Positions 12,001 through 58,912 of a stretch of 64,000 nt of DNA are shown in pieces. Position 1 is the first letter of the stretch, and each line of letters starts with the position of its first letter. A program made the position numbers and the translations under genes. Under the pieces are notes generated by a model. It did not search any database, was not told where the DNA came from, and saw nothing but the letters and a program-made list of their open reading frames with translations. Source of the stretch: Candidatus Poribacteria bacterium (GTDB taxonomy: Bacteria; Poribacteria; WGA-4E; PCPOR2b); the NCBI GenBank assembly GCA_022826645.1, contig JAJDUM010000027.1:12033-76032 (forward strand), in the 5' to 3' direction.

Positions 12001-12005
12001 AGCTG

Positions 12006-43302: not shown

Positions 43303-43316
43303 TGAACTGCGTAACT

Positions 43317-43488
43317 CCTATTATAGTAAAGTTTAGAATTAATTGAACACTCTGTACCGGCGAGGTTAGGAAACCTCGCCTACCGCGGATGGAAAAATCC
43401 GGGCTCTCACCCCGGTAGGTGCGGTTTCTAACCGCACGGCACGGGACAGAACATGGGCAGCGAAAGTGTCTATCTGTTTTTAGAATCC
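43317..43488 (-). repeat. family-A modular intergenic repeat, inverted copy (left boundary of defense island)
   Basis: It is the reverse complement of 57686-57851. It shares 'ccggtacag..ttgaattaattctaaactttactataat', the 'gtgcggtttctaaccgcac' hairpin and the 'gtgtctat..tttttagaat' end. Confidence 0.75.
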
Positions 43489-43504
43489 ACTATAATTAAA
43501 ATTA

Positions 43505-44731
43505 ATGAGAATCACAATGCCAGATTTTACAGACAAAGAATTGCTACAAATCGTCGAATTCGGCGAAGCGGACCGCGTTGAGTTGAAGGAATCTTTGTCC
43601 GGCAGTGCTACGGAAAGAATCAGGGAAGCCGTATGTGCGTTTGCCAACGATCTGCCACGCCACCAAAAACCGGGCTTGGTTTTCGTGGGGGTGAGAGACG
43701 ACAAAACCATTACAGGTCTATCGGTCACGGACGAGTTGCTCCAGCAGTTGGCTGATATGAAAACCGATGGGAATATTGTGCCGCCGCCCTCGTTGAACGT
43801 TGAAAAGCGCGTGCTGCAAGGTAAAGAGATTGCCGTCGTCACGGTACAACCCTCCGACTCGCCGCCGGTTCGATTTAGAGGTGCTATTTATATCCGTACC
43901 GGCCCGCGTCGAGGCATCGCTACAGCACAGGATGAAAGGATTCTCAACGAAAAGCGGCGATATGGAGATGTCCCCTTCGACCTACACCCCATCCTTGCAT
44001 CGGGCATCTCCAATCTTAACCTCGCCCGGTTCGAGAATGAATATCTGCCACAGGCTGTTACCGCCGAGATCCTGGAAGCCAATGATCGCACTTCCGAAGA
44101 ACGACTTGTCGCAACGAAGATGATTGCCCCGGGCGATGAACGAATCGCGACGGTATTGGGAGTACTAGTGATCGGCAGAAACCCACAAGATTTTCTTCCA
44201 GGTGCTTACGTGCAGTTCCTCAGAATTGATGGTAACGCATTAACCGATAATATTCTTGACAGCGAAGAGATACGCGGCGCAATCCCAGAACTCCTCCGCC
44301 GTTTGGATGAGAAGCTAATCGCTCACAATCGTACTGCTGTTGATTTCACAACCAGCGTCCTTGAACAACGGACGGAACTTTATCCCATCCCAGCGTTACA
44401 ACAGATCACCCGGAATGCCGTTATGCACAGAACCTACGAAGCAACCCATGCGCCGATTCGTGTGTCTTGGTTCAATGACCGCATTGAGGTTTTTAGTCCC
44501 GGTGGCGCGTTCGGGGTGATAACGGAGGCAAATTTCGGACAGCCCGGACTAACCGATTATCGCAACCCCAATCTGGCGGAGGCGATGAAGAATCTCGGTT
44601 ATGTGCAACGTTTTGGCGTGGGAATACCGACCGCGAAAAGACTCCTGACCGAGGCAGGGCACTCGGAACCGGAATTTAAAATTAACGACAATTACGTGGT
44701 CGTTACCATAAAAGCAGCGCAAAAATCCTGA
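43505..44731 (+). CDS. Schlafen/AlbA_2 DNA-binding domain + HATPase_c_4 (RecG-C-terminal-like) protein, defense-island associated putative regulator
   Basis: N-terminal 'ADRVELKESL...FANDL' (AlbA_2 E..K motif). C-terminal 'RNPNLAEAMKNLGYVQRFGVGI' (HATPase_c_4). Confidence 0.72.
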   Translation: MRITMPDFTDKELLQIVEFGEADRVELKESLSGSATERIREAVCAFANDLPRHQKPGLVFVGVRDDKTITGLSVTDELLQQLADMKTDGNIVPPPSLNVEKRVLQGKEIAVVTVQPSDSPPVRFRGAIYIRTGPRRGIATAQDERILNEKRRYGDVPFDLHPILASGISNLNLARFENEYLPQAVTAEILEANDRTSEERLVATKMIAPGDERIATVLGVLVIGRNPQDFLPGAYVQFLRIDGNALTDNILDSEEIRGAIPELLRRLDEKLIAHNRTAVDFTTSVLEQRTELYPIPALQQITRNAVMHRTYEATHAPIRVSWFNDRIEVFSPGGAFGVITEANFGQPGLTDYRNPNLAEAMKNLGYVQRFGVGIPTAKRLLTEAGHSEPEFKINDNYVVVTIKAAQKS

Positions 44732-44737
44732 GAGGAG

Positions 44738-45742
44738 ATGGCAATGCCCGTTCCAGTGCTAACGTTCTTCAACAATAAAAGCGGTGCTGGCAAGACATCC
44801 CTTGTCTATCATCTGGCGTGGATGCTATCCGATATGGATTATCAAGTGCTCGCTTGTGACCTCGATCCGCAGGCGAACCTCACCCGCATGTTTATCAATG
44901 AGGAACGTCTAGAAATACTGTGGCCTGACGATGGAGAGAGGAAAACCATCTATAATGCCCTCCAACCGCTTTTGGACGGGACCGGAGACATTGAGCAACC
45001 TTACCTAGAACGGATAGCACCGAAGTTGAGCCTCATCGTAGGGGATCTCTCGTTATCCGCTACCGAAGATGAATTTTCGAGCCAATGGCAAGCGTGTCTT
45101 GACCGTCGCCCACGTGCTTTCCGTGTGATTTCAGCACTATGGCGCATTTTACAAACAGCAGCGAACGATAGTGGTGCTGAGATTGTCTTGGTAGATGTGG
45201 GGCCCAATCTAGGGGCTTTGAATAGAGCGGTGTTGGTTGCGACGGATTACGTTATCGTTCCGCTTGGAACAGATCTGATTTCACTTCAAGGACTGCGGAA
45301 CCTTGGTCCGATGCTACGAGATTGGCACAGTGGATGGAAAGATAGATGCGACCGCAACCCCATCCCTGACCTATGTATACCCAATGGATGGATTCAACCC
45401 ATCGGCTATCTGGTACGGCAACCTGATATCCGTTTGAATCGCCCTATAACGGTTGATGACAAATGTTTCAACCGTATGCCAGAGGAATATGCCCGAAACC
45501 TACTAGGCGATAACAATGGCCCCTATCCTGAGACACCGGCACAAGATGAAAAACACGCCCTCGCTATTGTCAAGCACTATCGAAGCCTAGTACCGATGGC
45601 ACAGGAGGCACGAAAGCCCATGTTCCATCTCACTCCGGCCGATGGGGCCATCGGCAGCCATGCCGCCGCCGCCAATGGGGCTCGTGCGGATTTCAAGGCT
45701 TTGGCTGAGAAGATAATCGCAAGGATTGAACTTGGGATATGA
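44738..45742 (+). CDS. ParA/MinD-family ATPase
   Basis: Deviant Walker A 'NNKSGAGKTS' and 'ACDLDPQANL'. It is 334 aa, with a C-terminal extension. Confidence 0.82.
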   Translation: MAMPVPVLTFFNNKSGAGKTSLVYHLAWMLSDMDYQVLACDLDPQANLTRMFINEERLEILWPDDGERKTIYNALQPLLDGTGDIEQPYLERIAPKLSLIVGDLSLSATEDEFSSQWQACLDRRPRAFRVISALWRILQTAANDSGAEIVLVDVGPNLGALNRAVLVATDYVIVPLGTDLISLQGLRNLGPMLRDWHSGWKDRCDRNPIPDLCIPNGWIQPIGYLVRQPDIRLNRPITVDDKCFNRMPEEYARNLLGDNNGPYPETPAQDEKHALAIVKHYRSLVPMAQEARKPMFHLTPADGAIGSHAAAANGARADFKALAEKIIARIELGI

Positions 45743-45795
45743 ACCAATGAACTAATGAACTAATGAACCAAAACAACCTGAGATAGGTATAAATT

Positions 45796-48700
45796 ATGTC
45801 CAATCGTAACACCCGAATCCGAGACAATCACGATCGTGGAACGGTCGGCGATTTTCTGAAAGCCAACATCGAAAACGGTTCGGCACTCTCAGTTGTATCG
45901 GCATACTTCACAATCCACGCCTTTGAAGGACTCAAAGAACATCTGTGGAAAATTGACGGCCTTCGATTCCTGTTCGGTGAACCCGACTTTATCAAAAATC
46001 TCGACGCAAGGGACACCGATCCGAAAGCCTTCAAAATTGAGGACGAGGGGTTGCAGCTTGACCAGACGCTTCAACAGAGACCGATTGCAAAAGCGTGCGC
46101 TGAGTGGATAGACAAGAAGGTGGAGATTAAGTCAACCCGACAATCGAATCTACTCCATGGGAAAATGTATCACATCGCCAACAACGACGCAGAAAAAGCC
46201 ATCATGGGCAGTTCTAATTTTACCGTGCAGGGACTCGGGTTGAGTCAGTCCAACAATAACATTGAGCTCAACTTAGAGGTGGAGAACGACCAAGACCGTC
46301 GGGACCTGAAAGCGTGGTTTGATGACCTCTGGAACGACGATAAACGGGTCGAAGATGTCAAGAAAAAGGTAATTGACAGGTTAGAGAAGCTGGGGGACGA
46401 TCAGGCACCAGAGTTCATCTATTACAAGACCCTTTACGAGTTGTTCCGGGATGAATTAGAAACCCGCATGAACAACGAGCAGAAAATAGAGGACACGCAC
46501 CTATACGACACACAAATTTGGGATACGTTGTACGCCTTTCAGAAAGATGGTGTAAAAAGCGTCATCGCCCGTCTGTTGCGTCACAACGGCTGCATCCTCG
46601 CTGATAGCGTGGGATTGGGCAAGACCTACACAGCGTTGGCGGTTATCAAGTTCTTTGAATTAAGGAATGAGCGTGTACTGGTGTTGTGTCCCAAAAAACT
46701 GCGCGAAAACTGGGCACTATATCCAGTGTATTACAGTCAACTCAACAACCCGTTCGAGGAAGACAAATTCGGCTACTCGCTGCTATCGCATACCGACCTA
46801 TCCCGCTACGAAGGCGACGCCGACGGCACCGGTTTGGAGGGGTTTAACTGGAGTAATTTTGACTTGGTGGTGATCGACGAATCGCACAACTTCCGCAACG
46901 ACACCAAACCCACCCTTGATGATGCGGGTAATATCACCCGCCACAGTCGCTACACACGGTTGTTAGAGGAGGTTATCAAGGAGGGCGCCCAAACGAAGGT
47001 GCTGATGCTTTCAGCGACGCCGGTCAATACGTCCCTCATTGACCTGCGGAATCAGATCTACCTGATGACCGGAAAGCGCGAAGAGGTCTTCCAGAAAAGT
47101 TTGGGGATCAGCAATATCCGCGCTTTGTTGGGGCAGGCACAAAAGGAGTTTAAGGCATGGGAAGATGATAAGGACAGTGGTAGAGATAAATCGAAATTGC
47201 TGGCTAAATTGGGAGCCGACTTCTTCCAGTTACTCGGCGGCGTTTCTATCGCCCGCTCTCGACGGCACATTGAGACTTTCTACGCCGATGAAATCGATAG
47301 AATCGGCGAGTTCCCCGAACAACTGAAACCGGAAAACCATCACCCACCCACCGACCTGACCGGCGCACTCTCCTATAAATATTTGGCGGATCAGATAGAG
47401 AAATTCTCCCTGTCTGTCTACACGCCGTCCAGTTACGTCATCGGTGAAGCAGCAAAACAGCGATTGGCACAAGAGAAACAGGACTTCCGTTTCAACCAGT
47501 TGGACCGTGAGAAGTTCCTGATTGGAATGATGCAGACCAACTTTCTCAAGCGTCTGGAGAGTTCCGCACACTCCCTCACAGAAACGCTCCAACGCACAAT
47601 CGGCAAAATTGACACCTTGTTGGAAAAGATCGAACGTTATGAACAAAACCAGCAGATGCCGGAAACAGAAAGTGACCGCCTCGCAGAGACCGACATCCTT
47701 CCGGAGGACGACGAAGACGATGAGGAGTTTCTGGTAAATAAGGCGCGTTACCCCTATCACTTGGGAGAATTGGATTGCGTCCGTTGGAAAGAAGATCTCA
47801 TAAAGGACAAAGGGACGTTGGGGGAGGCGTTGGAGAGCGTCAAAGGGATCACGCCGGAGCGAGACGGCAAACTTCAAGCGATTAAGGCGCATATTCGCGA
47901 CAAGGCAGCACACCCCCCGACCGACAAGGACGGAGAGATCAATCGCAAGCTCTTAGTATTCACCACCTTCAAGGACACGGCGGAGTACCTCTATGATAAC
48001 CTCTCGGATCTGGCAGCGGAACTGAACCTGAAGGTGGCGATGGTCTCCGGTGACGTGACGCGCACCCAATCCCGACCAAACAACTTCAACGCCATCCTCA
48101 CCAATTTCGCGCCACGAGCCCGGGGACGCGCCGATAACGACGGCGATGAAATTGACCTGCTAATCGCCACCGATTGCATATCGGAGGGACAAAATCTACA
48201 GGATTGCGACACGGTGCTGAACTATGACATCCACTGGAATCCGGTGCGTATCATCCAACGCTTCGGCCGTATTGACCGCATCGGCAGCCGCAACCTCTCG
48301 GTGCGAATGATTAACTATTGGCCCACCGAGGATATGGAGGTCTATCTGCGCCTGCAAAGCCGTGTCGAGGCTCGCATGGCACTCGCGGACGCGGCGGCAA
48401 CCGGCAGTGAGGACCCGTTGAACGAATCGGCTTATGAACAAGCCCAAATGGAACTGAATTTCCGCGACCAGCAGCTGAAACAACTGCGCGAAGAGGTGTT
48501 AGATTTCGACGACCTCTCCGACGGGGTTGTTCTGAGCGATTTTACGCTCGACTACTTCTTCACCCAACTATTGCGGTATCTGGAAAAGAACAAAAAGGAG
48601 TTGGAAGCGGCACCCAACGGCGTGTATGCTGTCACCCACGATGAAAGCCATCCGACAGAAACCGGGGTCATCTTTTTTCTCCGCCAGCGGAATGCCAACA

Positions 48701-49089: not shown

Positions 49090-49165
49090 CTGTAGGAGGG
49101 ATTTCCGAATTCCGATATATCGTTCAGGATTGAAGATGGGAAAACAAAAAACGGGAAGCGGATCT

Positions 49166-49611
49166 TTAGCCCCAACGGTGCGACAGGTTTATAGCTGTGG
49201 GAGGGGCATCCTTGCCCCGATCTCCGTGCGCTCCCAAGCCCCAGCGGGGCGGCATGTGTTGGAGTGATGCGTGATGCGTAAATAGTTCATTGGTTTAATT
49301 CTTGTCTGAATCAGGATTTGCAGGATTAAAGAATTTACAGGATAGAAAACGAAACGTGAAACGGGATGTGCGTTGGTTCATTTAGCACCAGAGAGGCGAC
49401 ATGTTTATAGCCGGGTGATAGGACCCTTCTTCCAAGCCCCAGCGGGGCGACATGTGCCATTTGTCTGAATCGCAGATTAAAACGGATTTAACGGATTTAA
49501 CGGATAAGGCAAAGAAAATGGGAAAATCAGCTTTTAGCCCCAGCGGGGCGACATGTTTATAGTACGCGGAATACGCAAATAACCAAAGCCCCAGCGGGGC
49601 GACATGTTAGA
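49166..49611 (+). repeat. cluster of REP-like hairpin repeats, unit ~ 'agccccagcggggcgacatgt(ttatag)' (stem GCCCC/GGGGC, loop AGC), 5-6 copies with irregular spacing
   Basis: Copies at 49166, 49236, 49392, 49434, 49535 and 49586. Inverted copies at 59111, 59157, 60722 and 60767. Confidence 0.75.
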
Positions 49612-49680
49612 ACTTATACAGTTCAGGTTGTAGGGAACAACGATCGTTGTTCCCTACGGACATAACAAGGGATAAAGCAC

Positions 49681-52600
49681 ATGACCAACGAAGAAATCAG
49701 AAAGAAGGAAGAAATCGAATCCGCCTTGGCTGCGATGATTGATGGCGATTTTTTGGAAACCGCAAATAACCTACTTGAGGTGTTAGATTACCACGCGCCA
49801 CTTACTGAGGAACTTCTGGAAACGGTGGATAACTTTATTCAGGAATACCCGGCTGAAAATGAAAACACCAAGACGGAACAAGAATTCCGTGAGAATGCCA
49901 AATCAATAGAATTAGTATCTCAAGTTGGGAGCGATGGAATTGCTGACAGGCAGCCAGACCGCTTGGAGTCAAAAACCTTCGACGGGGGACTTATACAGAG
50001 TTTTGTTTTCTGTGCTGTCGAATTAAAAGATAACGACTACTCCCGGAGCAAATACGCCCAATTCACACGAGAGATCAACAAACGGCTCCCCCTTGCGACT
50101 GTGGTGTTTTTTCGGGTTCAAGACCGTTTAACCATAGGTTTTGTCGGTCGCCGCCAACACAAGCGTGACCCAAATCTCGACGTACTGGAACAGGTCAGCC
50201 TAATCAAGGACATTCGACTAAATAAGCCACACCCGGCGCATAGAGAGATTCTGTATGAACTTTCGTTGGACGAATGCGCGAAGTGGATGGACGCCAAGGA
50301 CCAACCGGAAAACTTCGATGGCTTGCTCGCGGCGTGGCTTGCCCGACTGGACACCTCCGAACTCAACAAACGCTTCTTCAACGAACTCGCCAACTGGTAT
50401 TTCTGGGCTGTCGATCAGGTGACGTTCCCAGACGACGCGGGGGAAGACGTCGAAGTCCGCAACGCCACCAGCGTCATCCGCCTGCTCACACGACTAATTT
50501 TTGTGTGGTTCGTCAGGGAAAAGGGACTGGTGCCGGACGCGCTCTTTAACCCAAACGATCTCGATGACATCCTCAATAATCTCGATCCGGGGGAAAGCAC
50601 CTACTACAAAGCAATCCTTCAAAACCTGTTCTTTGCCACGCTCAATCAGGAGATGAACACCGAGCAGTATCCCAATAACCGCAAATTTCGCGGTGAGGGA
50701 CGGCAGCACTACAACATCACATCGTTCTATCGTTACAAAGACTGTTTCATTGACCCGGACGATGCCTTACGACAGTTTGAGGCAATCCCTTTTCTGAATG
50801 GCGGGCTATTTGAGTGCTTGGATGGGCAATCTAAAGATGATCCTACAGAGATTCTACGGATTGACGGCTTTTCCGACAGGAACGACATTCCGCTGCATGT
50901 CCCTAATGAACTGTTCTTTTCGGAGGAACGGAGCGTTGACCTCAATGCCGCTTACGGCACAAGAGGGAAACGACATAAAGTACGCGGCCTGATTCACATT
51001 CTCAGCAGCTACAAATTCACGATTGCCGAGAACACCCCGATTGAGGAGGAGGTCGCTCTGGACCCCGAACTGCTCGGCAAGGTGTTTGAAAACCTCCTCG
51101 CCGCCTACAACCCCGAAACCAAAGTAACCGCCCGCAAACAGACCGGCTCCTACTACACCCCCCGCGAGATTGTCAACTACATGACCGACGAGTCGTTGAT
51201 TGCCTATCTAAAAAATGAGCTCATCCGCCCCGTTGAGTCCGATGCACAAAAAGCGGAGATCGAGAAGAAACTTCGCGGGCTGCTCGCCTATAACGATGCC
51301 CCAAACCCATTCGATGAGGCGGAAACCGAGGTGCTAATCAAAGCCATTGACGCCCTCAAGATCCTTGATCCCGCCTGCGGTTCGGGCGCGTTTCCGATGG
51401 GGGTGCTGCATAAACTGGTATTCATTCTCGGAAAATTGGATCCGCGCAATGAGCAGTGGAAGCAACGGCAAATCGCCAGAGTCGAAAGTACCATTGAGAG
51501 GGCGGAGGACATTGACGATAGCACATTTCGGGAAAATACTATCCGCGAACTTGAGGGGGAAATTGAGAACATCAACGAGGCATTTGAACGGAACGAACTG
51601 GACTACGGGCGGAAACTCTACCTGATTGAAAACTGCATCTACGGCGTGGACATTCAGCCCATCGCCACCCAGATTGCCAAGCTCCGCTTCTTTATCTCCC
51701 TCATCGTAGATCAGCAGATTGACGGATCACGGGAGAATCACGGGGTACGCCCGCTGCCGAACCTGGAAACGAAGTTTGTCGCGGCGAATACGCTCATCGG
51801 CGTGGATAAACCGTTGCAAACACAAATCCGCAGCCCGCAGGTTGACCGCAAGGAGAAGGAACTGGAGGATGTGCGCCGCAGACACTTCACCGCTCGCACC
51901 CCAAGCACCAAAGCCAAATACCGTGCCCTCGATGCCCAAATCCGCACCGAAATTGGTGAATTGCTCAGAGACCTCGGCTTTCCCGATGAGACGACTGAGA
52001 AAATCGCTAATTGGGACCCCTACAATCAGAACGCAAGTGCGGATTGGTTCGATTCGGAATGGATGTTTGGGGTCAGGGATGGGTATGATATTACGATTGG
52101 CAATCCGCCGTATATTCAATTGCAAAGCGATGGTGGACAATTAGGGCGTTTGTATGTACCGTGCAATTTTGATAGCTTTATCAGGACAGGGGATATTTAT
52201 TGCCTGTTCTATGAAAAAGCGAATCAACTGTCGAAAAAGAGCGGGCATGTCTGTTTTATTACTTCTAACAAATGGATGCGCGCAGCGTATGGCAAAAAGC
52301 TGAGAGATTATTTTATCTCACATACCCAACCGATTCAACTGCTAGATATGGGACCAGATGTATTTGATGCCACCGTGGACACCAACATCCTGCTACTGCA
52401 AAACGCCCTATCCGATGGCAGTACACACCTCCCCTTCACAGCTACAACTATCAAATCTGATTTCGACAAACATGCTGGCGACATAGCCAAATACCTGAAG
52501 GATAACGGTGTGACTATGGAACTGCCCTCTAAAGGCGAACCGTGGGCGATACTCTCACCGACTGAACTTGCCCTGAAACGCAAGATAGAAGAGGTTGGCA

Positions 52601-53409
52601 AACCGCTCAAAGACTGGGATATAAACATCTATCGTGGAATTGTAACAGGTTTCAATGAAGCATTTGTCATAGACGAAGCCAAGCGTGAAGAATTGATAGC
52701 GGTTGACCCAAAGTCAGCCAAAATCATCAAACCACTTCTGCGCGGACGAGACATCAAACGCTATCATGCCCAATGGGTGGGATTGTATTTGATAAGTACT
52801 TTTCCTGTGCTTGATTTGAACATTGACGATTATCCTGCGGTTAAAAGTCATCTTCTGGAGTTTGGCAGAGATCGATTGGCACAGGTTGGTAAAACACTTG
52901 CTGACGGCACTAAATCTCGTAAGAAGACAGGAAATAAATGGTTTGAGTTACAAGATCAAATCGCTTACTACCCCGAGTTTGCAAAGGAGAAAGTTATTTA
53001 TCCAGAGATAACAAAGTTTCTCCCATTTGTTTACGACCCAAATGAGTTCTACATCAATAATAAGAGTTTTATCATTACGGGTGGAAATTATTTGAAATAT
53101 CTTACAGGATATCTTAACTCTCGGATCGCAGCAAAGTGGATTCGTGAAAACTGTCCAGAATTGGGTGATGACAGAAGAGAGTTGAGAAAAGTATTCTTTG
53201 AGAATATTTTAATTCCTCCTGTTACGGAAGCGAACCAACACCTTGTCACGCAGATAGAAACGCGGGTGGACCAAATCCTCGACGCCAAAGACACGAATCC
53301 AGACGCGAATGTATCCGAACTTGAAAAAGAGATTGATCAGATAGTATACTTGTTATACGATCTCACCGATGAAGAAATTAAAATTGTGGAGGCTGCGGAA
53401 ACTGTCTGA
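49681..53409 (+). CDS. Type IIG/IIL restriction-modification enzyme (PglX/DrmMI-like N6-adenine methyltransferase with putative N-terminal PD-(D/E)xK nuclease and C-terminal TaqI_C-type TRD)
   Basis: 'DPACGSGAFPMG' (motif I) and 'ITIGNPPYIQ' (motif IV NPPY). N-terminal 'DGG..FVFCAVELK' (D...ExK). The C-terminal target-recognition domain is homologous to the next gene's C-terminus. Confidence 0.85.
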   Translation: MTNEEIRKKEEIESALAAMIDGDFLETANNLLEVLDYHAPLTEELLETVDNFIQEYPAENENTKTEQEFRENAKSIELVSQVGSDGIADRQPDRLESKTFDGGLIQSFVFCAVELKDNDYSRSKYAQFTREINKRLPLATVVFFRVQDRLTIGFVGRRQHKRDPNLDVLEQVSLIKDIRLNKPHPAHREILYELSLDECAKWMDAKDQPENFDGLLAAWLARLDTSELNKRFFNELANWYFWAVDQVTFPDDAGEDVEVRNATSVIRLLTRLIFVWFVREKGLVPDALFNPNDLDDILNNLDPGESTYYKAILQNLFFATLNQEMNTEQYPNNRKFRGEGRQHYNITSFYRYKDCFIDPDDALRQFEAIPFLNGGLFECLDGQSKDDPTEILRIDGFSDRNDIPLHVPNELFFSEERSVDLNAAYGTRGKRHKVRGLIHILSSYKFTIAENTPIEEEVALDPELLGKVFENLLAAYNPETKVTARKQTGSYYTPREIVNYMTDESLIAYLKNELIRPVESDAQKAEIEKKLRGLLAYNDAPNPFDEAETEVLIKAIDALKILDPACGSGAFPMGVLHKLVFILGKLDPRNEQWKQRQIARVESTIERAEDIDDSTFRENTIRELEGEIENINEAFERNELDYGRKLYLIENCIYGVDIQPIATQIAKLRFFISLIVDQQIDGSRENHGVRPLPNLETKFVAANTLIGVDKPLQTQIRSPQVDRKEKELEDVRRRHFTARTPSTKAKYRALDAQIRTEIGELLRDLGFPDETTEKIANWDPYNQNASADWFDSEWMFGVRDGYDITIGNPPYIQLQSDGGQLGRLYVPCNFDSFIRTGDIYCLFYEKANQLSKKSGHVCFITSNKWMRAAYGKKLRDYFISHTQPIQLLDMGPDVFDATVDTNILLLQNALSDGSTHLPFTATTIKSDFDKHAGDIAKYLKDNGVTMELPSKGEPWAILSPTELALKRKIEEVGKPLKDWDINIYRGIVTGFNEAFVIDEAKREELIAVDPKSAKIIKPLLRGRDIKRYHAQWVGLYLISTFPVLDLNIDDYPAVKSHLLEFGRDRLAQVGKTLADGTKSRKKTGNKWFELQDQIAYYPEFAKEKVIYPEITKFLPFVYDPNEFYINNKSFIITGGNYLKYLTGYLNSRIAAKWIRENCPELGDDRRELRKVFFENILIPPVTEANQHLVTQIETRVDQILDAKDTNPDANVSELEKEIDQIVYLLYDLTDEEIKIVEAAETV

Positions 53410-53465
53410 ATCACGGATTAGACGGATTTAGCGGATAGCGCGGATTTTTTAATCCGTGTCCTTCG

Positions 53466-53507
53466 TTAATCCGCGATAATCATCGATTCTGACAGTGAGA
53501 GGATTGG
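53466..53507 (+). repeat. family-D repeat 'taatccgcgataatca(t/g)cgattctgacagtgagaggattg'
   Basis: Copies at 58694-58736 and 58939-58974. The flanking 'tctgaatcacgga' is also at 42961 and 58981. Confidence 0.7.
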
Positions 53508-53589
53508 AATTGTGGAGGAAGCTATCCAACTGAAAGTGGGGTTGGGTTAAATAATATTTGACAGGTACGGAATTAAGGAGACCAAGGGA

Positions 53590-56253
53590 ATGAATAAAGT
53601 TTTTATCTCCTATGTTAGGGAAAATATAGAAATAGTTGACCGGCTCTACCAAGAACTCACAGCACACGGGATCGAAGTCTGGCTGGATCGGGAAAATATT
53701 GATCCAGGATCTCGCTGGGAGCAAGCAATTCGGAGAGCTATTCAACAAGGAGCTTTTTTCATTGCCTGTTTCTCCGAGGAATATCATAATCGTGGTCAGA
53801 CCTACATGAACCAAGAACTTACGTTCGCAATTGATGAGCTGCACCAACGCTCCCCTGATCAAATATGGTTTATTCCCGTAAAATTAAACGAATGCGAGAT
53901 TCCTGACCGTGACATTGGTGGCGGGAAAACCTTACAAGCCCTACAGTATGTCAATCTCTATGAAAACTGGGACGATAGTATCCAACGTATTCTTAAAGTC
54001 ATTCAACCCGGATTATCTGAACCTGTTATAAACGCAAATGCTGTAGAGCAATCCGAAACGCAAGTTCAGCCACAGGAGGCAAACGCCTATTTCGATCAAG
54101 GCAATGTTTACCAAAGCAAGGGTGATTATGACCATGCCATCGAAGCTTTTAACACAGCAATAGAACTCAAACCTGATTTTGCCGAAGCCTATACCAATCG
54201 CGGTCTAGCTCACCAGAACAAAGGTGATTTTGACCTTGCCTTTAAAGACCACGCCAAAGCGATAGATCTGAATCCCGATTATGCCGAAGCCTATTTCAAT
54301 CGCGGTGGTGCTCATAAGAGCAAAAACAATTATGTTCATGCCCTTGTAAACTTTAACACAGCAATAGAACTCAAACCCGATTTTGCCGGGGCCTATAACC
54401 ATCGTGGCGTAGTTTACCTTGATAGAGGTGATGATGATTGTGCCATCGCAGATTTTACCAGAGCGATAGATCTGAATCCCGATTTTATTGCCGAAGCCTA
54501 TACCAATCGCGGACTTGCTTACCATAAAAAAGGTGAAATTGACAATGCCCTCAAAGACTATACCAAAGCGATAGACCTGAATCCTAATTTTGTTGCCGAA
54601 GTCTATTACAATCGCGGGTCCGCTTACGGGAACAAAGGGGATTTTGACCGCGCTATTGGGGATTTGAACAAAGCAATAGAGCTCAAACCCGATGATGCCA
54701 AAGCCTATAGCAATCGTGGAGTTGCTTACCACGGCAAGGGCGATTTTGACCATGCTATTACAGACTATACCAAAGCAGCAAAACTCAACCCCGATTCTAC
54801 TGAAATCTATTACAATCGCGGAGTTGCTTACGGGGCAAAAGGCGATTTTGACCGCGCTATTATAGATTATACCAAAGCGATACAACTCAACCCCGATTCT
54901 CCCATAGCCTATAATAATCGCGGGGTAGCTTACCACGGCAAAGGCGATTTTGACCGCGCTATTACAAACTATACCAAAGCGATAAACCTGAATCCCGTTT
55001 TTGTCAATGCCTATTGCAATCGTGGTGAGACGTGGTTACACCTAGAAGAGTGGGATAAAGCCAGGGCAGACCTGAGTGTCGCCAGAAAGATGGGGATAGA
55101 TATCGTTGCTTTATTTCATAATGAATACAAGAACGTTGAGGCGTATGAACGGGCAAATCGTGTTAAATTGCCCGAAGATATCGCCGCGATGCTGACGCAG
55201 CGGCGGCGGAGCCGTTTCCCCAAAACCGAAAAGTTCTTGAGTGCTGACGGCACCCCCCTTGAATCGCCCGATATATTGAATCTGCTTGCAAAACTCCGCA
55301 ACGCGGGACCACCCCTGTCGCAATACCTTCAGACGCGCCCCACTTTTGGACTCAAGACCGGTGCGAGCGGAGCCTTTGTCGTGGATAGTGCGACGCGAGA
55401 TCAACTCATTGCGGATCACCCTGCATCTGCTGATATTTTGAAACCGTTTCTGCACGGACGGGACATCAGACGCTGGGGGGTGGAGAGCCCCGATTCATGG
55501 TTAATTTTTGTCCACCGTCGCATAGAGATAGACCGTTATCCTGCCATCCGAAAACACCTGGAACAATATAGATCGGTCTTGAGCAAAAGGGCGGGTAAAC
55601 AGAAATGGTACGAACTGCCAACCACCAAAAAAGGCACCGAGCGCTTTACACAAACAAAACTCATTTGCCCAAATAACTACAATCACCAAACCTTCGCTGT
55701 TGATACGGACGGGTTTTACTGTGGAGATACATGCTACCTGATTCCGACTGAGGAGACATGGTTATGCGGTCTCCTCAATTCCCGCGCTGTGGAGTGGTTC
55801 TATTCGCAGGTGTCAAAACAGTTGACGGGGGATTATCTTCGGGCGCGCAGCCGCCATATCCAAGAAATCCCTATCCCCGAGCTCACGTCAACACAGAAAT
55901 CCCTAATCGGCAAAATCGTTGATTATCTCATCTTTCTTCAGGGACAACCGACGACGAGGAGCGGGGATTTAGCACATGCCCGCGATGCTGTGATGCTCGG
56001 GTATTTTGAGCGGATCATTGACGGACTGGCTTATGAGTCCTATCTACGTGAAGAACTGCATCAAGGGGAAAAACAGTTCTTCAACCCGTTGTTGGATGAG
56101 CGGTTGCCGCAACTTGAAGAAATTCGGGGCGATAAAATGGCCGCGTTACAAGAAATCTTCGAGCGATTGTATGAAAGAATGCATCCGATCCGGCGAAACC
56201 TTTTCTTTCTGAACAGTGTAAAACCGATCCGCATCATTGAGGACAGAACGTGA
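53590..56253 (+). CDS. TIR-domain protein with ~10 TPR repeats and a C-terminal TaqI_C-like DNA target-recognition domain (candidate defense effector/sensor)
   Basis: N-terminal 'KVFISYVREN...GIEVWLD...IDPGSRW...FIACFSEEY...MNQELTFAI' is a bacterial TIR_2 pattern including a candidate catalytic Glu. Then 34-aa 'AEAYxNRGxAYxxKGDFDxAIxDYTKAIxLNPD' repeats. The C-terminal 'FGLKTGASGAFVVD...ILKPFLHGRDIRRW...YPAIRKHL...KWYEL...LLNSRAVEWF' aligns with the TRD of the upstream RM enzyme. Confidence 0.8.
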   Translation: MNKVFISYVRENIEIVDRLYQELTAHGIEVWLDRENIDPGSRWEQAIRRAIQQGAFFIACFSEEYHNRGQTYMNQELTFAIDELHQRSPDQIWFIPVKLNECEIPDRDIGGGKTLQALQYVNLYENWDDSIQRILKVIQPGLSEPVINANAVEQSETQVQPQEANAYFDQGNVYQSKGDYDHAIEAFNTAIELKPDFAEAYTNRGLAHQNKGDFDLAFKDHAKAIDLNPDYAEAYFNRGGAHKSKNNYVHALVNFNTAIELKPDFAGAYNHRGVVYLDRGDDDCAIADFTRAIDLNPDFIAEAYTNRGLAYHKKGEIDNALKDYTKAIDLNPNFVAEVYYNRGSAYGNKGDFDRAIGDLNKAIELKPDDAKAYSNRGVAYHGKGDFDHAITDYTKAAKLNPDSTEIYYNRGVAYGAKGDFDRAIIDYTKAIQLNPDSPIAYNNRGVAYHGKGDFDRAITNYTKAINLNPVFVNAYCNRGETWLHLEEWDKARADLSVARKMGIDIVALFHNEYKNVEAYERANRVKLPEDIAAMLTQRRRSRFPKTEKFLSADGTPLESPDILNLLAKLRNAGPPLSQYLQTRPTFGLKTGASGAFVVDSATRDQLIADHPASADILKPFLHGRDIRRWGVESPDSWLIFVHRRIEIDRYPAIRKHLEQYRSVLSKRAGKQKWYELPTTKKGTERFTQTKLICPNNYNHQTFAVDTDGFYCGDTCYLIPTEETWLCGLLNSRAVEWFYSQVSKQLTGDYLRARSRHIQEIPIPELTSTQKSLIGKIVDYLIFLQGQPTTRSGDLAHARDAVMLGYFERIIDGLAYESYLREELHQGEKQFFNPLLDERLPQLEEIRGDKMAALQEIFERLYERMHPIRRNLFFLNSVKPIRIIEDRT

Positions 56254-57671
56254 GAATTACTGAGATTGAAATCAAAAACTTCAAAGCCTTTTATGGCACC
56301 TACCGAATCGACCTACGCAAGACTGGAAAGAACCTATTGGTTTACGGTGAAAATGGGAGCGGAAAATCGTCCCTGTATTTTGCGTTAAAGTTGTTCTTGG
56401 AATCCGGCGATAATCCTTCACATAGATTTGAAAACGATCAGAACATCTTTATCGGAGATCCGGGCTATATCAAGCTGTGTCTCCGCGCTGACCGGCGGTC
56501 AAATCAGATGACCTACGAATGGTCGGAGAGCGTTAGAGAGACGGATGACGAACTGATTATTGAGGCATCAAGGGCAAAGGGCTTCCTCGATTATAAGGAC
56601 CTTCTGGAGACGCACTACGTCCATCGTGAAAGTAATACTGTCAATGTATTCAATTTGCTGGTTGAGACACTCTTGGCAAACACCGTCAACCCCCGGACAA
56701 ATCGAACCCTTGCGCAGGATTGGGCTGTTATTCAGCCACCGTATCCACGCCGAAACGCAACAAGTCAAATTGCGGACCTTGAAAGCTGGATAGAGATTTT
56801 CAACACTGAATTAGCAAACAGATTAGCAGAGCTGCAGCCAAAAGTATCCGAAATCCTTGGCAAGTTTGGACACAACGTTGCCCTTAATTTCGATTTTCCG
56901 GGGGTTAAATATAACCGTGAGGACAGAACGCTTGATAATCAGGGGATTTTCCTAACGGTTGAGCTCTTCGATAGAAATATTCCCGAACATCACCGCTTCC
57001 TGAACGAAGCGAGGCTATCGGCAATCGCTATCGCTATCTACTTTTCGTCAATCCTGATTCAGCCAGAAGGTGCCCTGAAGATTCTCGCCTTAGATGATGT
57101 GCTGATCGGCTTAGACATGTCAAACCGACTGCCGGTGCTTGATATGCTAGCCGAGTATTTTTCAGACTACCAAATCTTTTTGACGACGTACGATAAGGCG
57201 TGGTATGAGATTGTCAGACAACGGACATCTGATGCCGATTGGGAATACACCGAATTCTATACTTCAGAGTCCAACGAACACGAGATTCCCATTCATGTGC
57301 AAGATAAGCCGTATCTTGAAAAGGCGAAAGTGTATTTTAACGACAACGACTACAAAGCCTGCGTCATCTACCTTCGCACCGCCTTTGAAGCAGCTATCAA
57401 GAAATTCTGCGATAGGAAAAACCTCCGAGTTAGATACCGTGAAAATCCGAAAGAACTACAAAGCAACGACTTCTGGGAACCGATAAAAAAGATGGAGTTA
57501 GACGATGGTACACCCTTTTTAGGGCAGGAGCTCATTGACGAGATTGAACTGTACCGAAGTATTATCCTAAACCCACTCAGCCATGCTCGTATTGTCCCCG
57601 TCGTCAAAAAGGAAGTTTCTGAAGCAATAGAAGCGGTGGAAAAACTTGAAGATAAATTAGCAGGAAATTAA
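56250..57671 (+). CDS. ABC/SMC-type (RecF/OLD-like) AAA ATPase, translationally coupled to the TIR-TPR-TRD gene
   Basis: Walker A 'GENGSGKSS', a signature-like 'EARLSAIAIA', Walker B 'ILALDDVLIGLD' and H-loop-like 'FLTTYD'. The start overlaps the upstream stop by 4 nt. Confidence 0.8.
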   Translation: MRITEIEIKNFKAFYGTYRIDLRKTGKNLLVYGENGSGKSSLYFALKLFLESGDNPSHRFENDQNIFIGDPGYIKLCLRADRRSNQMTYEWSESVRETDDELIIEASRAKGFLDYKDLLETHYVHRESNTVNVFNLLVETLLANTVNPRTNRTLAQDWAVIQPPYPRRNATSQIADLESWIEIFNTELANRLAELQPKVSEILGKFGHNVALNFDFPGVKYNREDRTLDNQGIFLTVELFDRNIPEHHRFLNEARLSAIAIAIYFSSILIQPEGALKILALDDVLIGLDMSNRLPVLDMLAEYFSDYQIFLTTYDKAWYEIVRQRTSDADWEYTEFYTSESNEHEIPIHVQDKPYLEKAKVYFNDNDYKACVIYLRTAFEAAIKKFCDRKNLRVRYRENPKELQSNDFWEPIKKMELDDGTPFLGQELIDEIELYRSIILNPLSHARIVPVVKKEVSEAIEAVEKLEDKLAGN

Positions 57672-57685
57672 AGGAGTGCTATAGC

Positions 57686-57851
57686 GGATTCTAAAAATAA
57701 ATAGACACTTTCGCTCCCCATGTTTGGTAGGCGCTGTTTCCAACTGCGCCGATGCGGTGCGGTTAGAAACCGCACCTACCGGGGTGATAGCCCGGATTTC
57801 CCCCCCCCCCCCGGTACAGAATGTCCAATTAATTCTAAACTTTACTATAAT
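57686..57851 (+). repeat. family-A modular intergenic repeat (right boundary of defense island), includes a 12-nt poly-C tract
   Basis: 'ggattctaaaaataaatagacac', 'gcggtgcggttagaaaccgcacc' and 'ccggtacagaatgtccaattaattctaaactttactataat'. It is the inverse of 43317-43488. Confidence 0.75.
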
Positions 57852-57859
57852 TACTGCCT

Positions 57860-58850: not shown

Positions 58851-58912
58851 GGTTTGTAGTAGCGCAATCCATTGCGCGTCCGGACGGGCGATAAATCGCC
58901 CTACTACGAACC
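58851..58912 (+). repeat. family-B double-hairpin repeat, second copy
   Basis: ~95% identical to 43243-43302. Confidence 0.75.

What the first reader, a model, noticed from the sequence alone, without database searches (positions are those of the whole stretch)
43317..57851. 14.5-kb defense island bracketed by inverted copies of a ~165-bp modular repeat
Repeats at 43317-43488 and 57686-57851 are reverse complements of one another (shared 'ccggtacag..ttgaattaattctaaactttactataat', the 'gtgcggtttctaaccgcac' hairpin and a 'gtgtctat..tttttagaat' end). Exactly between them sit six defense-type genes: an AlbA_2/HATPase_c_4 protein, a ParA-like ATPase, a PLD-SNF2 helicase, a Type IIG RM enzyme, the TIR-TPR-TRD protein and an ABC ATPase. 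No integrase or transposase is present. The arrangement looks like a MITE-bounded cassette that could be mobilised in trans or by recombination between repeats. The PLD(HKD)+SNF2 protein plus a PglX/DrmMI-like ~1240-aa N6-adenine MTase resembles a DISARM class-1 core (DrmC+DrmD+DrmMI), but no DrmA or DrmB (DUF1998 helicase) is present. This may be a reduced or variant DISARM-like system.
Basis: partly seen in the sequence, partly recalled or inferred. Interest (0 to 1): 0.75.

Follow-up and report, generated by a model that had tools for sequence, protein, structure and literature searches.

The report
Defence island with two unrelated MITE insertions
The two inverted 170-bp repeats are separate copies of a small mobile element that litters Poribacteria genomes, not the ends of a mobile cassette; the genes between them belong to a larger, variably present phage-defence island whose core is a nuclease-helicase plus DNA-methylase pair that is not DISARM.

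Summary
Two ~170-bp repeats (43324-43492 and 57682-57847) are inverted copies, and six defence-type genes lie between them. The interpretation mostly fails.

Each repeat is a complete TA-flanked MITE with its own terminal inverted repeats. The family is scattered through Poribacteria intergenic regions, including those between housekeeping genes: 29 sites in 464 kb, 16 of them in core sequence.

Eight Poribacteria species have an empty site, with the MR_MLE gene directly next to the alpha/beta-hydrolase gene. This places the true island at about 42812-59465 (16.65 kb), wider than the repeats and including a TPR-PDDEXK_3 gene. A relative (L006) has the same left junction and the same first genes but lacks the left MITE.

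DISARM membership fails: there is no DrmA or DrmB, and the HMM matches favour other families.

The core is an HKD(PLD)-SNF2 protein next to an Eco57I/Cj0031-type adenine methylase. This pair was found in 73 of 73 informative metagenome relatives. The methylase N-terminus is weakly DUF4391-like.

A second module pairs a TRD-type protein (here fused to TIR-TPR) with an ABC-type ATPase. It recurs in Poribacteria, on a Nostoc plasmid, and within one tight operon. The locus is a modular variant of known methylation-based defence. Interest is moderate.

The parts
41511..42656 (-). Left flanking core gene (MR_MLE / enolase-superfamily enzyme); conserved anchor of the hotspot
   Evidence: Pfam MR_MLE_C 2.4e-42. 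Orthologues at 89-97% identity in 17 Poribacteria loci.
42657..42811 (.). Conserved intergenic block next to MR_MLE, present in empty and occupied sites, with promoter-like TCGACA-17-TATCAT on the - strand. The island's left junction lies at about 42811/42812.
   Evidence: Alignment of empty sites, occupied sites, promoter scan, coordinates.
42812..59465 (.). The variable island as defined by comparison with eight empty sites (about 16.65 kb)
   Evidence: tblastn map of 17 orthologous loci, empty-site alignment, junction sequences.
43237..43302 (+). Compound-hairpin repeat; its second copy (94% identical, direct orientation) is at 58846-58911
   Evidence: the repeat finder family D9. No exact copy in any fetched locus.
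43324..43492 (+). MITE copy 1 (169 bp), flanked by TA at 43322-43323 and 43493-43494. It has imperfect terminal inverted repeats and internal hairpin modules.
   Evidence: Absent at the orthologous position in L006. Replaced by a shorter, oppositely oriented copy in L001.
43517..44731 (+). g1: Schlafen/AlbA_2 + HATPase_c_4 protein. The ORF can start at 43505, but the conserved start is ATG 43517.
   Evidence: Pfam 3.6e-18 and 2.7e-17. Present only in the window and L001/L006 versions of the island.
44738..45742 (+). g2: ParA/MinD-like P-loop ATPase (AAA_31, CbiA); a frequent upstream neighbour of g3 in Poribacteria
   Evidence: Pfam 4.9e-25. Adjacent to g3 in L001/L006, L002, L017 and L172.
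45796..49089 (+). g3: HKD(PLD)-SNF2 nuclease-helicase, 1097 aa. Motifs HGK...GSSNFT, GLGKT and DESH are present.
   Evidence: Pfam and PADLOC C3a139 at 1.5e-109, motifs. More than 120 clusters at 76-93% identity in Poribacteria. Upstream of a g4-like gene in 73/80 metagenome loci.
49165..49608 (.). Array of REP-like palindromic repeats (AGCCCCAGCGGGGCGACATGT family) filling the 590-bp g3|g4 spacer
   Evidence: the repeat finder D7/D10. The same family occurs in core spacers and other loci.
49681..53409 (+). g4: 1242-aa Eco57I/Cj0031-type N6-adenine methyltransferase with a TaqI_C/MmeI-type TRD, an MmeI-like helical spacer and a DUF4391-like N-terminal domain
   Evidence: Pfam Eco57I 2.2e-34 and TaqI_C 4.2e-10, PADLOC REase_MTase_IIG 1.3e-149, motifs PACGSGAFP and GNPPY. 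N-terminal domain.
53590..56253 (+). g5: TIR (1-140) - TPR (150-500) - TRD plus C-terminal domain (542-887)
   Evidence: Pfam TIR_2 8e-26 and TaqI_C 1e-15. C-terminal half aligns end to end with the C-terminus of the ATPase-coupled methylase of L101 (33%, 5e-56). Family of more than 330 proteins.
56250..57671 (+). g6: ABC/SMC-type ATPase (Walker A GENGSGKS); its start overlaps g5 by 4 bp
   Evidence: Pfam SMC_N, AAA_23, AAA_15, motif. Paired with a TRD protein in L005, L087, L088, L089, L090 and L101. 554 cluster representatives at E<=1e-30.
57682..57847 (-). MITE copy 2 (166 bp), opposite orientation, flanked by TA at 57680-57681 and 57848-57849
57863..58651 (+). R1: TPR + PDDEXK_3 nuclease-family protein. 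It lies outside the repeat pair but is part of the island.
   Evidence: Pfam PDDEXK_3 2.6e-33. No hit in any of the eight empty-site loci. Shares 102-nt TPR repeats with g5 (D1/D2).
58652..59465 (.). Repeat-rich spacer ending in a partial MITE (59333-59463, B end followed by TA 59464-59465) that abuts the right junction
59492..60517 (+). Right flanking core gene (alpha/beta hydrolase), directly adjacent to MR_MLE in empty sites
   Evidence: Pfam, tblastn map, alignment.

Best explanation
The window comes from a Candidatus Poribacteria (sponge symbiont) genome. In these genomes the short spacer between a divergently transcribed MR_MLE gene and an alpha/beta-hydrolase gene is a recurrent site for defence cargo. 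It is empty in 8 of 15 informative species genomes and holds different gene sets in the others. Here it holds a 16.65-kb island (about 42812-59465).

The two ~170-bp inverted repeats are two independent insertions of a lineage-specific subfamily of a Poribacteria MITE. The element targets TA, has imperfect ~27-nt terminal inverted repeats, and carries a variable number of internal hairpin modules. Both copies landed in the island's long spacers after the island was acquired. They are neither its ends nor, on present evidence, its vehicle.

The cargo is modular.
(i) g3+g4 form an RM-like pair. The Eco57I/Cj0031-type methylase reads a short sequence with its TaqI_C-type TRD and marks host DNA with m6A. 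The HKD-SNF2 protein is the ATP-driven translocase and PLD nuclease that destroys unmarked DNA. It probably docks through the methylase's DUF4391-like N-terminal domain.
(ii) g5+g6 form a second pair. A TRD-plus-C-terminal-domain DNA reader works with an ABC-type ATPase. In Poribacteria it carries an N-terminal TIR-TPR, presumably an NAD-degrading abortive-infection effector.
(iii) g1, g2 and the TPR-PDDEXK_3 gene are accessory.

Shown here: the repeat anatomy, the island limits, the gene contents, the gene-pair conservation and the catalytic motifs. Inferred: the methylation specificity, the division of labour between g3 and g4, the role of DUF4391, and TIR activation.
For: Organism and conservation: g3 homologues are named Candidatus Poribacteria, and the loci are from Poribacteria MAGs.

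Empty site: L007, L009, L010, L012, L014, L015, L018 and L048 have MR_MLE next to the hydrolase. L005, L006, L008, L011, L013, L016 and L017 are occupied by different gene sets. Junctions are defined. R1 is absent from all empty sites.

MITE: eight complete copies from five genomes align with conserved ends, TA flanks and variable middles of 105-209 bp. A full copy sits in the MR_MLE|MoeA spacer of L005, which is only 62 bp in L009, L010 and L011 (63 and 68 bp in the window and L017). The census gives 16 core and 11 island sites. The end motif occurs only in Poribacteria loci. L006 has the same junction without the left MITE.

g3+g4 pair: adjacent in 9 Poribacteria loci. Adjacent in 73/80 metagenome loci; the other 7 lack upstream sequence. 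Overlapping genes in L101. The pair was noted before in Bacteroides (PMC9881135). On plasmids, g3 homologues are followed by a free DUF4391 gene and a type III methylase. 13 of 45 g4 N-terminal homologues hit DUF4391.

g5+g6 pair. Motifs.
Against: No function was tested. The methylation motif, nuclease activity and NADase activity are all unknown.

The DUF4391 assignment for the g4 N-terminus is weak. The window's own sequence has no Pfam hit. hhalign gives a probability of 2.9%.

The modules occur apart: methylase with TRD protein and ATPase but no g3 (L087, L089, L005); g3+g4 without g5/g6 (L002, L008, L011, L013); TRD protein with ATPase alone (Nostoc plasmid). Coupling between them is therefore not established.

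MITE sites are about 2.4-fold denser in island sequence than in core sequence, so some association with islands exists. The whole source genome could not be scanned. How the island itself moves is not explained.
Confidence: 0.72

Rival explanations
1. First reader's model. The two inverted MITE copies delimit a 14.5-kb composite cassette that is moved in trans by a transposase, or inverted or excised by recombination between the repeats.
For: The copies are each other's closest relatives: they share the TAGTAAAG and AATTAATTG variants not seen in other genomes. They are inverted and enclose six defence genes. IS630-family elements with TA targets exist in these genomes. MITE sites are somewhat enriched in island sequence.
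Against: The presence/absence breakpoints lie outside the repeats, and the excluded TPR-PDDEXK_3 gene is island cargo. L006 has the same island junction and genes without the left copy, and L001 has a different copy in the other orientation. The same gene modules at other loci (L002, L003, L087, L172) are not framed by these repeats. Island orientation relative to MR_MLE is the same in all seven occupied loci, so no inversion is seen. Each copy has both ends and its own TA flanks, which fits two single insertions.
Confidence: 0.04
2. The locus is a reduced class 1 DISARM system (DrmC+DrmD fused, plus DrmMI) that has lost DrmA and DrmB.
For: The domain types overlap: PLD, SNF2 helicase and a large N6-adenine methylase. 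PADLOC gives secondary matches to DrmD (6e-33) and DrmMI (1e-21). DISARM-like variants with fused genes are described (PMC9881135).
Against: There is no DrmA or DrmB/DUF1998. The only window ORFs of at least 500 aa outside the island carry peptidase-type (S15, M36, BlaR1/M56), F5/8 type C or iPGM domains. The best HMMs are C3a139 HKD+Snf2 (1.5e-109, full length) and Type IIG (1.3e-149). The DrmD and DrmMI matches cover only the helicase C-lobe and the TRD. The g3+g4 pair recurs in 73 loci and on plasmids without DrmA/B.
Confidence: 0.04
3. The island is merely a collection of independent systems with no functional coupling: a self-sufficient Type IIG/IIL enzyme (g4), an autonomous SauUSI-like HKD-helicase restriction enzyme (g3), a TIR abortive-infection pair (g5+g6), and others.
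For: The modules occur separately in other genomes. In the window g3 and g4 are separated by a 590-bp repeat-filled spacer. The g4 N-terminus weakly resembles the nuclease-bearing N-terminus of DrdV and BpuSI. SauUSI-type HKD-helicases act alone (10.64898/2026.09.23.753747).
Against: g3-g4 adjacency was found in 73 of 73 informative distant loci. Translational overlap links g3-g4-ATPase in L101. Synteny of HKD-SNF2 with DUF4391 holds whether DUF4391 is free or (apparently) fused. g3 has no recognisable DNA-specificity domain of its own.
Confidence: 0.2
4. The TIR-TPR, TPR-PDDEXK_3 and related TPR proteins are eukaryote-like symbiosis factors aimed at the sponge host, not parts of phage defence.
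For: The window also encodes an LRR protein and two large putatively secreted proteins (M36 peptidase with a Por secretion tail, 2003-aa F5/8 type C). TPR-effector genes of several kinds (TIR, FRG, Fic-adjacent, PDDEXK_3) follow the methylase in different genomes. From general knowledge, sponge symbionts are rich in TPR and other eukaryote-like repeat proteins, and bacterial TIR proteins can interfere with host signalling.
Against: g5 is fused to an RM-type TRD and is translationally coupled to an ABC ATPase. That pair also occurs on a Nostoc plasmid and in a plasmid-like operon with GmrSD/HNH nucleases. No signal peptide or secretion signal was looked for or seen. The genes sit in a variable defence hotspot.
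Confidence: 0.07

Closest known systems
PLD-SNF helicase gene next to a Cj0031-like Type IIG RM gene (Bacteroides ovatus CP083813.1 and relatives; Milman et al., NAR 2023, PMC9881135)
   Same: The same two-gene arrangement: an HKD/PLD + SNF2 CDS immediately upstream of an Eco57I/Cj0031-type methylase-TRD CDS. The gut metagenome loci recovered here with g4 (L099-L170) are of this kind.
   Different: The gut loci carry an inverted spare TRD cassette and a resolvase, giving phase-variable specificity. The Poribacteria locus has none. Instead it is followed by a same-strand TRD protein fused to TIR-TPR and an ABC ATPase. Identity is only about 25% for g3 and 42% for g4.
MANTIS / Gao_RL / BREX-related type 2 (bioRxiv 10.64898/2026.09.23.753747; PMC12839542)
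   Same: The same logic: an N6-adenine methylase that marks self, an HKD(PLD)+SF2 helicase-nuclease effector with a single HKD motif, and an additional ATPase.
   Different: There is no DUF499 AAA+ ATPase (MtsA) and no MtsB-type small protein (DUF3780 in PMC12839542, written DUF3870 in the MANTIS preprint). The methylase is Eco57I/TaqI_C-type with a DUF4391-like N-terminus. The ATPase is ABC/SMC-type. g3 matches HmaA only at 2.8e-27, over the helicase.
DISARM class 1
   Same: It contains PLD, SNF2 helicase and a large adenine methylase.
   Different: The defining DrmA and DrmB (DUF1998) are absent, and the HMM matches to DrmD and DrmMI are partial and secondary.
HKD-SNF2 + DUF4391 + Type III Mod/Res operons on plasmids (E. 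coli IncF, Desulforapulum, Methanomethylovorans); 'C3a139 HKD+Snf2' cluster of Shah et al. 2018 (PMC6546367)
   Same: The same HKD-SNF2 family: 38% identity over the full length, and the same best PADLOC model. A DUF4391 unit follows the helicase gene.
   Different: There DUF4391 is a free 230-270-aa protein and the methylase is Type III Mod with a Res helicase. Here the DUF4391-like domain appears fused to a Type IIG-like methylase, and no Res is present.
TA-targeting MITEs such as Neisseria Correia elements and Tc1/IS630-derived MITEs (comparison from my own knowledge, not tested)
   Same: About 100-210 bp, non-coding, with terminal inverted repeats beginning TA|T(A/G)GTG.., TA flanks, intergenic insertion close to gene starts, and many copies.
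   Different: The middle is built from a variable number of REP-like hairpin modules. No autonomous partner with matching ends was found. The one IS630-like element seen (L002) shares only the first ~7 nt.

Membership tests
MITE-bounded composite mobile cassette | The repeats coincide with the presence/absence breakpoints of the segment | tested here: not met
   Eight empty sites place the breakpoints at about 42812 and 59465, outside both repeats.
MITE-bounded composite mobile cassette | The same cassette is found at other sites framed by the same repeats | tested here: not met
   Related modules at other loci (L002, L003, L087, L172) and the orthologous island in L006 lack this framing.
MITE-bounded composite mobile cassette | A transposase that recognises the repeat ends | not tested
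   Only one degenerate IS630-like element was seen (L002), with limited end similarity. The source genome could not be scanned.
MITE (TA-targeting, Tc1/IS630-like) | Short non-coding element with terminal inverted repeats | tested here: met
   Eight complete copies of 105-209 bp share conserved ends T(A/G)GT..TTTAGAATTA..ACAC and GTGTCTAT..TTTT.A.AAT.CAC.A.
MITE (TA-targeting, Tc1/IS630-like) | TA target-site duplication | tested here: inconclusive
   All eight aligned copies are flanked by TA on both sides. No exactly matching unoccupied site was recovered to prove duplication.
MITE (TA-targeting, Tc1/IS630-like) | Multi-copy, with insertion polymorphism between related genomes | tested here: met
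   29 sites in 464 kb. The L005 copy lies in a spacer that is 62 bp in three relatives (63 and 68 bp in two more). The left copy is absent in L006.
DISARM class 1 | DrmA helicase and DrmB (DUF1998) | tested here: not met
   Neither is in the island. All other window ORFs of at least 500 aa carry peptidase-type, F5/8 type C or iPGM domains.
DISARM class 1 | DrmD-type SNF2 helicase and DrmMI methylase as the best family assignment | tested here: not met
   g3: C3a139 at 1.5e-109 against DrmD at 6e-33 (partial). g4: Type IIG at 1.3e-149 against DrmMI at 1e-21 (TRD only).
Type IIG/IIL restriction-modification enzyme (Eco57I/MmeI/Cj0031 type) | Gamma-class N6-adenine methylase motifs and a TaqI_C/MmeI-type TRD in one chain | tested here: met
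   Eco57I 2.2e-34, TaqI_C 4.2e-10, motifs PACGSGAFP and GNPPY. The family profile matches BseCI, CamA, PglX, DrdV and MmeI.
Type IIG/IIL restriction-modification enzyme (Eco57I/MmeI/Cj0031 type) | An active endonuclease domain in the same polypeptide | tested here: inconclusive
MANTIS / BREX-related type 2 | DUF499 AAA+ ATPase (MtsA) and the small MtsB protein (DUF3780; DUF3870 in the preprint) | tested here: not met
   No such domains occur in any island protein. Definitions are from PMC12839542 and the MANTIS preprint.
MANTIS / BREX-related type 2 | HKD nuclease fused N-terminally to an SF2/SNF2 helicase, next to an N6-adenine methylase | tested here: met
   The g3 architecture and motifs fit, and g4 is adjacent. 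The two proteins belong to different sequence families than MtsD and MtsC.
MADS | mad6-mad8 core genes | tested here: not met
   Only g6 gives a weak mad3 match (1.7e-11). The MADS definition is from 10.1101/2023.03.30.534895.
'C3a139' HKD+Snf2 family (Shah et al. 2018) | Full-length match to the family profile | tested here: met
   1.5e-109 over residues 102-1051 against profile positions 94-921 of 948. The origin of the name was checked in PMC6546367.

The most novel reading that the evidence does not exclude
g3-g6 may be one four-part, methylation-based immune system that has not been named. In this reading the Eco57I-type methylase docks an HKD-SNF2 nuclease motor through a DUF4391-type N-terminal domain. 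Its TRD-type DNA reading is duplicated in a separate TRD-plus-C-terminal-domain protein that works with an ABC ATPase and, in Poribacteria, carries a TIR NADase. The locus would then combine restriction and abortive infection through the same kind of sequence reader. This is the MANTIS/BREX logic built from non-homologous ATPases. The three-gene operon of L101 (HKD-SNF2, methylase with the matching C-terminal domain, ABC ATPase, all overlapping) would be the compact ancestral form.
Probability: 0.2. Interest if true: 0.7.

Novelty: new variant of a known kind. Interest (0 to 1): 0.38.

Why it matters
For the finding as written, the result is a caution. In repeat-rich genomes a pair of inverted repeats around an island is expected by chance, because MITEs pile up in the long spacers of islands. 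Only empty-site comparison can tell what the island's ends are.

Three things are of wider use.

1. There is a clearly defined defence hotspot in Poribacteria, between the MR_MLE and hydrolase genes. It has empty and differently filled states across species. This is a handle for studying defence turnover in uncultured sponge symbionts.

2. The HKD-SNF2 nuclease-helicase is a portable restriction effector. It is regularly paired with a DUF4391 unit, either free or apparently fused to the methylase. This suggests a testable role for a domain of unknown function.

3. The TRD-protein plus ABC-ATPase pair has at least 554 family clusters for the ATPase and no specific model in PADLOC. In Poribacteria it is armed with TIR. 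It is a candidate new sensor-effector module.

Tried and rejected
- Rfam (gathering thresholds) and tRNA scans of the window found nothing, so the repeats are not a known RNA and there is no tRNA integration site.
- HIP1 (GCGATCGC) has 0 copies. My first guess of a cyanobacterial origin was wrong.
- An exact look-up of g3 found no record.
- I guessed that PADLOC 'C3a139 HKD+Snf2' was the Gao_RL/MANTIS helicase. A literature check showed it is cluster 139 of a Type III CRISPR accessory-gene survey.
- Sequence search of solved structures found no MtsD- or SauUSI-level match for g3, only generic SNF2 remodellers.
- BLASTP of the g4 N-terminus against a DUF4391 protein was negative, and a direct Pfam scan was negative. 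The link appeared only through homologues and remains weak by hhalign.
- A consensus promoter scan does not call the MITE ends as sigma-70 promoters, so I make no claim that the MITEs drive g1 or R1.
- MADS membership was rejected.
- The short g4 N-terminal homologues looked like free-standing domain genes. L172 showed they are fragments of a split methylase gene, from either a pseudogene or long-read frameshifts.
- Literature searches for Poribacteria MITEs, for TaqI_C+TIR, and for DUF4391 in defence found nothing relevant.
- Foldseek against the PDB found no match at E<=0.001 for the g4 N-terminal model.

Full report
OBSERVATION

The two repeats are real. Read on opposite strands, 43316-43500 and 57674-57855 align with conserved ends and a shared central hairpin. 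They differ by whole hairpin modules. The repeat finder reports three inverted blocks of 45-47 nt at 91-96% complementarity (I3-I5). The 25-nt end motif occurs exactly twice in 64 kb, against none in 100 shuffles.

- g1: AlbA_2/Schlafen + HATPase_c_4
- g2: ParA-like AAA_31
- g3: PLD + SNF2 + Helicase_C
- g4: Eco57I + TaqI_C
- g5: TIR_2 + TPR + TaqI_C
- g6: SMC_N/AAA_23

No Rfam family, tRNA, integrase or transposase is present.

WHAT THE REPEATS ARE

Each copy is a complete small element. Copy 1 is 43324-43492 and copy 2 is 57682-57847. Each is bounded by TA on both sides and has imperfect terminal inverted repeats of about 27 nt. The middle is made of REP-like hairpins such as GGTGCGGTTTCTAACCGCACC.

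The parts also occur elsewhere in the window. The hairpin has 5 copies. The GTGTCTAT..TTTTTAGAAT end module lies at 12.8, 14.5, 43.5, 57.7 and 59.4 kb.

In 464 kb of Poribacteria sequence (the window plus 20 loci), blastn finds 29 sites. Sixteen are in core sequence (325 kb) and 11 in island sequence (93 kb). Eight copies have both ends, and three of these lie between housekeeping genes.

The clearest case is L005. A 173-bp copy, TA-flanked, sits in the MR_MLE|MoeA spacer, which is only 62 bp in L009, L010 and L011, and 63 and 68 bp in the window and L017. The eight complete copies from five genomes align with conserved termini, invariant TA flanks and middles that vary from 105 to 209 bp. The end motif was found only in Poribacteria loci, not in the roughly 148 loci from other phyla.

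This is a MITE family of the TA-targeting kind. From memory, its ends resemble Tc1/IS630 and Correia-element termini; that is a lead, not a test. One degenerate IS630-like element, also TA-flanked, interrupts the methylase gene of L002, but it shares only the first few bases with the MITE ends.

WHERE THE ISLAND REALLY ENDS

The homologue names show the organism is Candidatus Poribacteria. I searched one genome per species with the left flanking MR_MLE protein. This returned 17 Poribacteria loci with 10 kb on each side. A tblastn map gave three kinds of result:
- Empty site in eight species (L007, L009, L010, L012, L014, L015, L018, L048). MR_MLE lies directly beside the alpha/beta-hydrolase that sits at 59492 in the window, followed by the same two downstream genes.
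- Occupied site in seven species, with different gene sets: g1-g4 (L006), g2-g4 (L017), g3+g4 plus other genes (L008, L011, L013, L016), and g4+TPR+g5+g6 without g3 (L005).
- Two loci (L004, L019) are cut off too close to MR_MLE to score.

Alignment of the empty spacers with the window's flanks places the junctions after ...GTATCTTGATCCAAGTTGAT (42811) and before AATTGACAGTAGAGAAGGAG (59466). The island is therefore about 16.65 kb. It reaches 0.5 kb to the left of the left MITE and 1.6 kb to the right of the right MITE.

The TPR-PDDEXK_3 gene (57863-58651) lies outside the repeat pair. It has no counterpart in any empty site, so it is island cargo.

L006 shares the window's left junction sequence for about 420 bp and carries g1-g4, but has no MITE upstream of g1. 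L001 has a shorter copy there in the opposite orientation. In all occupied loci the island has the same orientation relative to MR_MLE.

So the repeats are later, independent insertions into the island's long spacers. Other repeat families frame the genes as well, for example a 66-nt direct repeat at 43237 and 58846. This shows that bracketing is what repeat-rich spacers produce.

THE GENES: NOT DISARM

DrmA and DrmB are absent from the island and the window. g3's best model is 'C3a139 HKD+Snf2' (1.5e-109, nearly full length). DrmD models match only part of the helicase, at 6e-33. g4's best models are Type IIG (1.3e-149). DrmMI matches only the TRD, at 1e-21. C3a139 is a cluster from a survey of genes found near Type III CRISPR loci (PMC6546367).

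THE g3+g4 PAIR

g3 is very well conserved in Poribacteria, with more than 120 clusters at 76-93% identity. g4 varies far more (47-85%), especially in its TRD, as expected of a specificity subunit. The two genes are adjacent at the hotspot and at a second site next to PhyH genes (L002, L003, L172). One genome (OZ242315.1) has the hotspot empty (L010) but carries the pair elsewhere (L002).

A metagenome scan with g4 returned 80 distant relatives at 39-55% identity, many from the human gut. In 73 of them a g3-like gene lies immediately upstream. The other seven have too little upstream sequence to judge. Many gut loci also hold an inverted spare TRD and a resolvase. This is the arrangement recorded in passing by Milman et al. 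for Bacteroides ovatus: a Cj0031-like Type II RM CDS with an upstream PLD+SNF CDS (PMC9881135).

On plasmids of E. coli, Desulforapulum and Methanomethylovorans, 38%-identical g3 homologues head operons of HKD-SNF2, DUF4391, Type III Mod and Res.

The first 280 residues of g4 have no Pfam hit themselves. However, 13 of 45 homologues hit DUF4391 (best 7.6e-6) and 6 hit the MmeI helical spacer. hhalign aligns the same motif block, but only weakly.

g3 has the HxK...GSxN nuclease motif once, so, like MtsD or BfiI, it would have to dimerise. It also has GLGKT and DESH (comparison from the MANTIS preprint).

My reading is that g4 supplies sequence recognition and self-marking, and g3 supplies ATP-driven translocation and cleavage. 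The DUF4391-type domain would be the link between them. This is inferred from synteny, not shown.

THE g5+g6 PAIR

g6 overlaps g5 by 4 bp. The C-terminal 346 residues of g5 (TRD plus a roughly 110-residue tail) form a family of more than 330 Poribacteria proteins. These occur in three forms: TRD only (385-437 aa), TPR-TRD, or TIR-TPR-TRD.

In L087, L088, L089 and L005, such a protein is followed by a g6-type ATPase and preceded by a g4-type methylase, with no g3. On a conjugative Nostoc plasmid, a 338-aa TaqI_C protein and a 48%-identical ATPase overlap by 4 bp with no methylase nearby.

In L101, a plasmid-like contig, HKD-SNF2, a 1296-aa methylase and the ATPase form one overlapping operon. 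g5 residues 542-887 align end to end with that methylase's C-terminus (33%, 5e-56). This is a better match than to the window's own g4 (29%).

The ATPase family has 554 cluster representatives at E<=1e-30. Its PADLOC matches are only generic ABC N-terminal hits. g5's TIR keeps the glutamate-containing YMNQEL segment.

I infer that g5 and g6 form a DNA-reading sensor (TRD plus ABC ATPase), armed in Poribacteria with a TIR effector. Whether it cooperates with g4 is unknown.

COMPARISON WITH KNOWN SYSTEMS

The closest described arrangement is the Bacteroides PLD-SNF + Cj0031-like pair. The closest mechanistic model is MANTIS/BREX-related type 2: an AAA+ ATPase, a small co-regulator, a methylase and an HKD-SF2 nuclease. 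Its defining DUF499 ATPase and small MtsB protein (DUF3780 in PMC12839542, DUF3870 in the preprint) are absent here, and the methylase and ATPase belong to other families. MADS and DISARM memberships fail.

The locus is best filed as a new variant of methylation-based, helicase-nuclease restriction, sitting in an ordinary variable defence hotspot.

VERDICT

The repeat observation is correct, but its significance is not. The repeats are ordinary MITEs and are not the island's ends. The defence island is real and variable. The DISARM label is wrong.

The modular HKD-SNF2/DUF4391-methylase pair and the TRD/ABC-ATPase(-TIR) pair deserve follow-up, but nothing here is categorically new. Interest is 0.38.

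Noticed in passing
window 43237-43302 and 58846-58911: A 66-nt compound-hairpin sequence occurs twice in direct orientation at 94% identity. It also brackets g1-g6, both MITEs and the TPR-PDDEXK_3 gene. No exact copy occurs in any fetched locus. It could mediate deletion by recombination.
   Followed up: partly
window 49165-49608; also 59105-59188 and 60719-60800: A REP-like palindromic family (AGCCCCAGCGGGGCGACATGT) fills the 590-bp spacer between g3 and g4. It recurs in a core spacer and in six other Poribacteria loci. In distant relatives g3 and g4 overlap, so this spacer is a lineage-specific expansion.
   Followed up: partly
window 54077-55073 and 57996-58202: The 102-nt TPR-coding repeats of g5 recur in the TPR-PDDEXK_3 gene at 72-76% nucleotide identity. 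This suggests a shared TPR scaffold exchanged between effector genes (TIR, PDDEXK_3; FRG and Fic neighbours in L003).
   Followed up: no
L002 16672-17575: An IS630-like element (HTH_Tnp_IS630 ORF, TA flanks) interrupts the g4-type methylase gene, separating the catalytic part (1000 aa) from its TRD (230 aa).
   Followed up: partly
L172 10001-13564: The g4-type methylase is split into three ORFs (325, 441 and 385 aa) downstream of an intact ParA + HKD-SNF2 pair. This is either a decaying gene or frameshift errors in a long-read assembly. Many short 'homologues' of the g4 N-terminus in the protein database are probably fragments of this kind.
   Followed up: partly
L084 (E. coli IncF plasmid NZ_CP075717.1), L085, L086: A conserved operon of HKD-SNF2, DUF4391, Type III Mod and Res occurs on plasmids of bacteria and an archaeon. 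DUF4391 has no PADLOC model and almost no literature.
   Followed up: partly
L090 8988-11434 (Nostoc cf. commune plasmid pANSO36B): A stand-alone TaqI_C specificity-domain protein and a g6-type ATPase overlap by 4 bp, beside conjugation genes and with no methylase nearby. This may be an autonomous two-gene module.
   Followed up: partly
L099-L170 (mostly human gut metagenome contigs), e.g. L143 12780-14314: Downstream of the g4-like gene lie an inverted partial TRD ORF and a resolvase. This is the signature of phase-variable specificity switching by inversion.
   Followed up: partly
window 12000-16000: A low-GC stretch (0.44-0.47) holds a TetR-family gene, two MITE fragments (12802-12933, 14468-14499) and a 219-nt direct repeat (14722-14940 and 15387-15605). 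It may be another variable segment.
   Followed up: no
window 17589-18815, 19502-23515, 33279-39290: Proteins of a kind I associate with sponge symbionts (own knowledge): an LRR protein, an M36-type metallopeptidase with cohesin/PPC domains and a Por secretion tail, and a 2003-aa F5/8 type C (discoidin) protein.
   Followed up: no
L087 and L002 (both from chromosome OZ242315.1): One Poribacteria genome carries two separate g4-type methylase loci, one with HKD-SNF2 (L002) and one with TIR-TPR-TRD + ATPase (L087). Its MR_MLE hotspot is empty (L010).
   Followed up: yes
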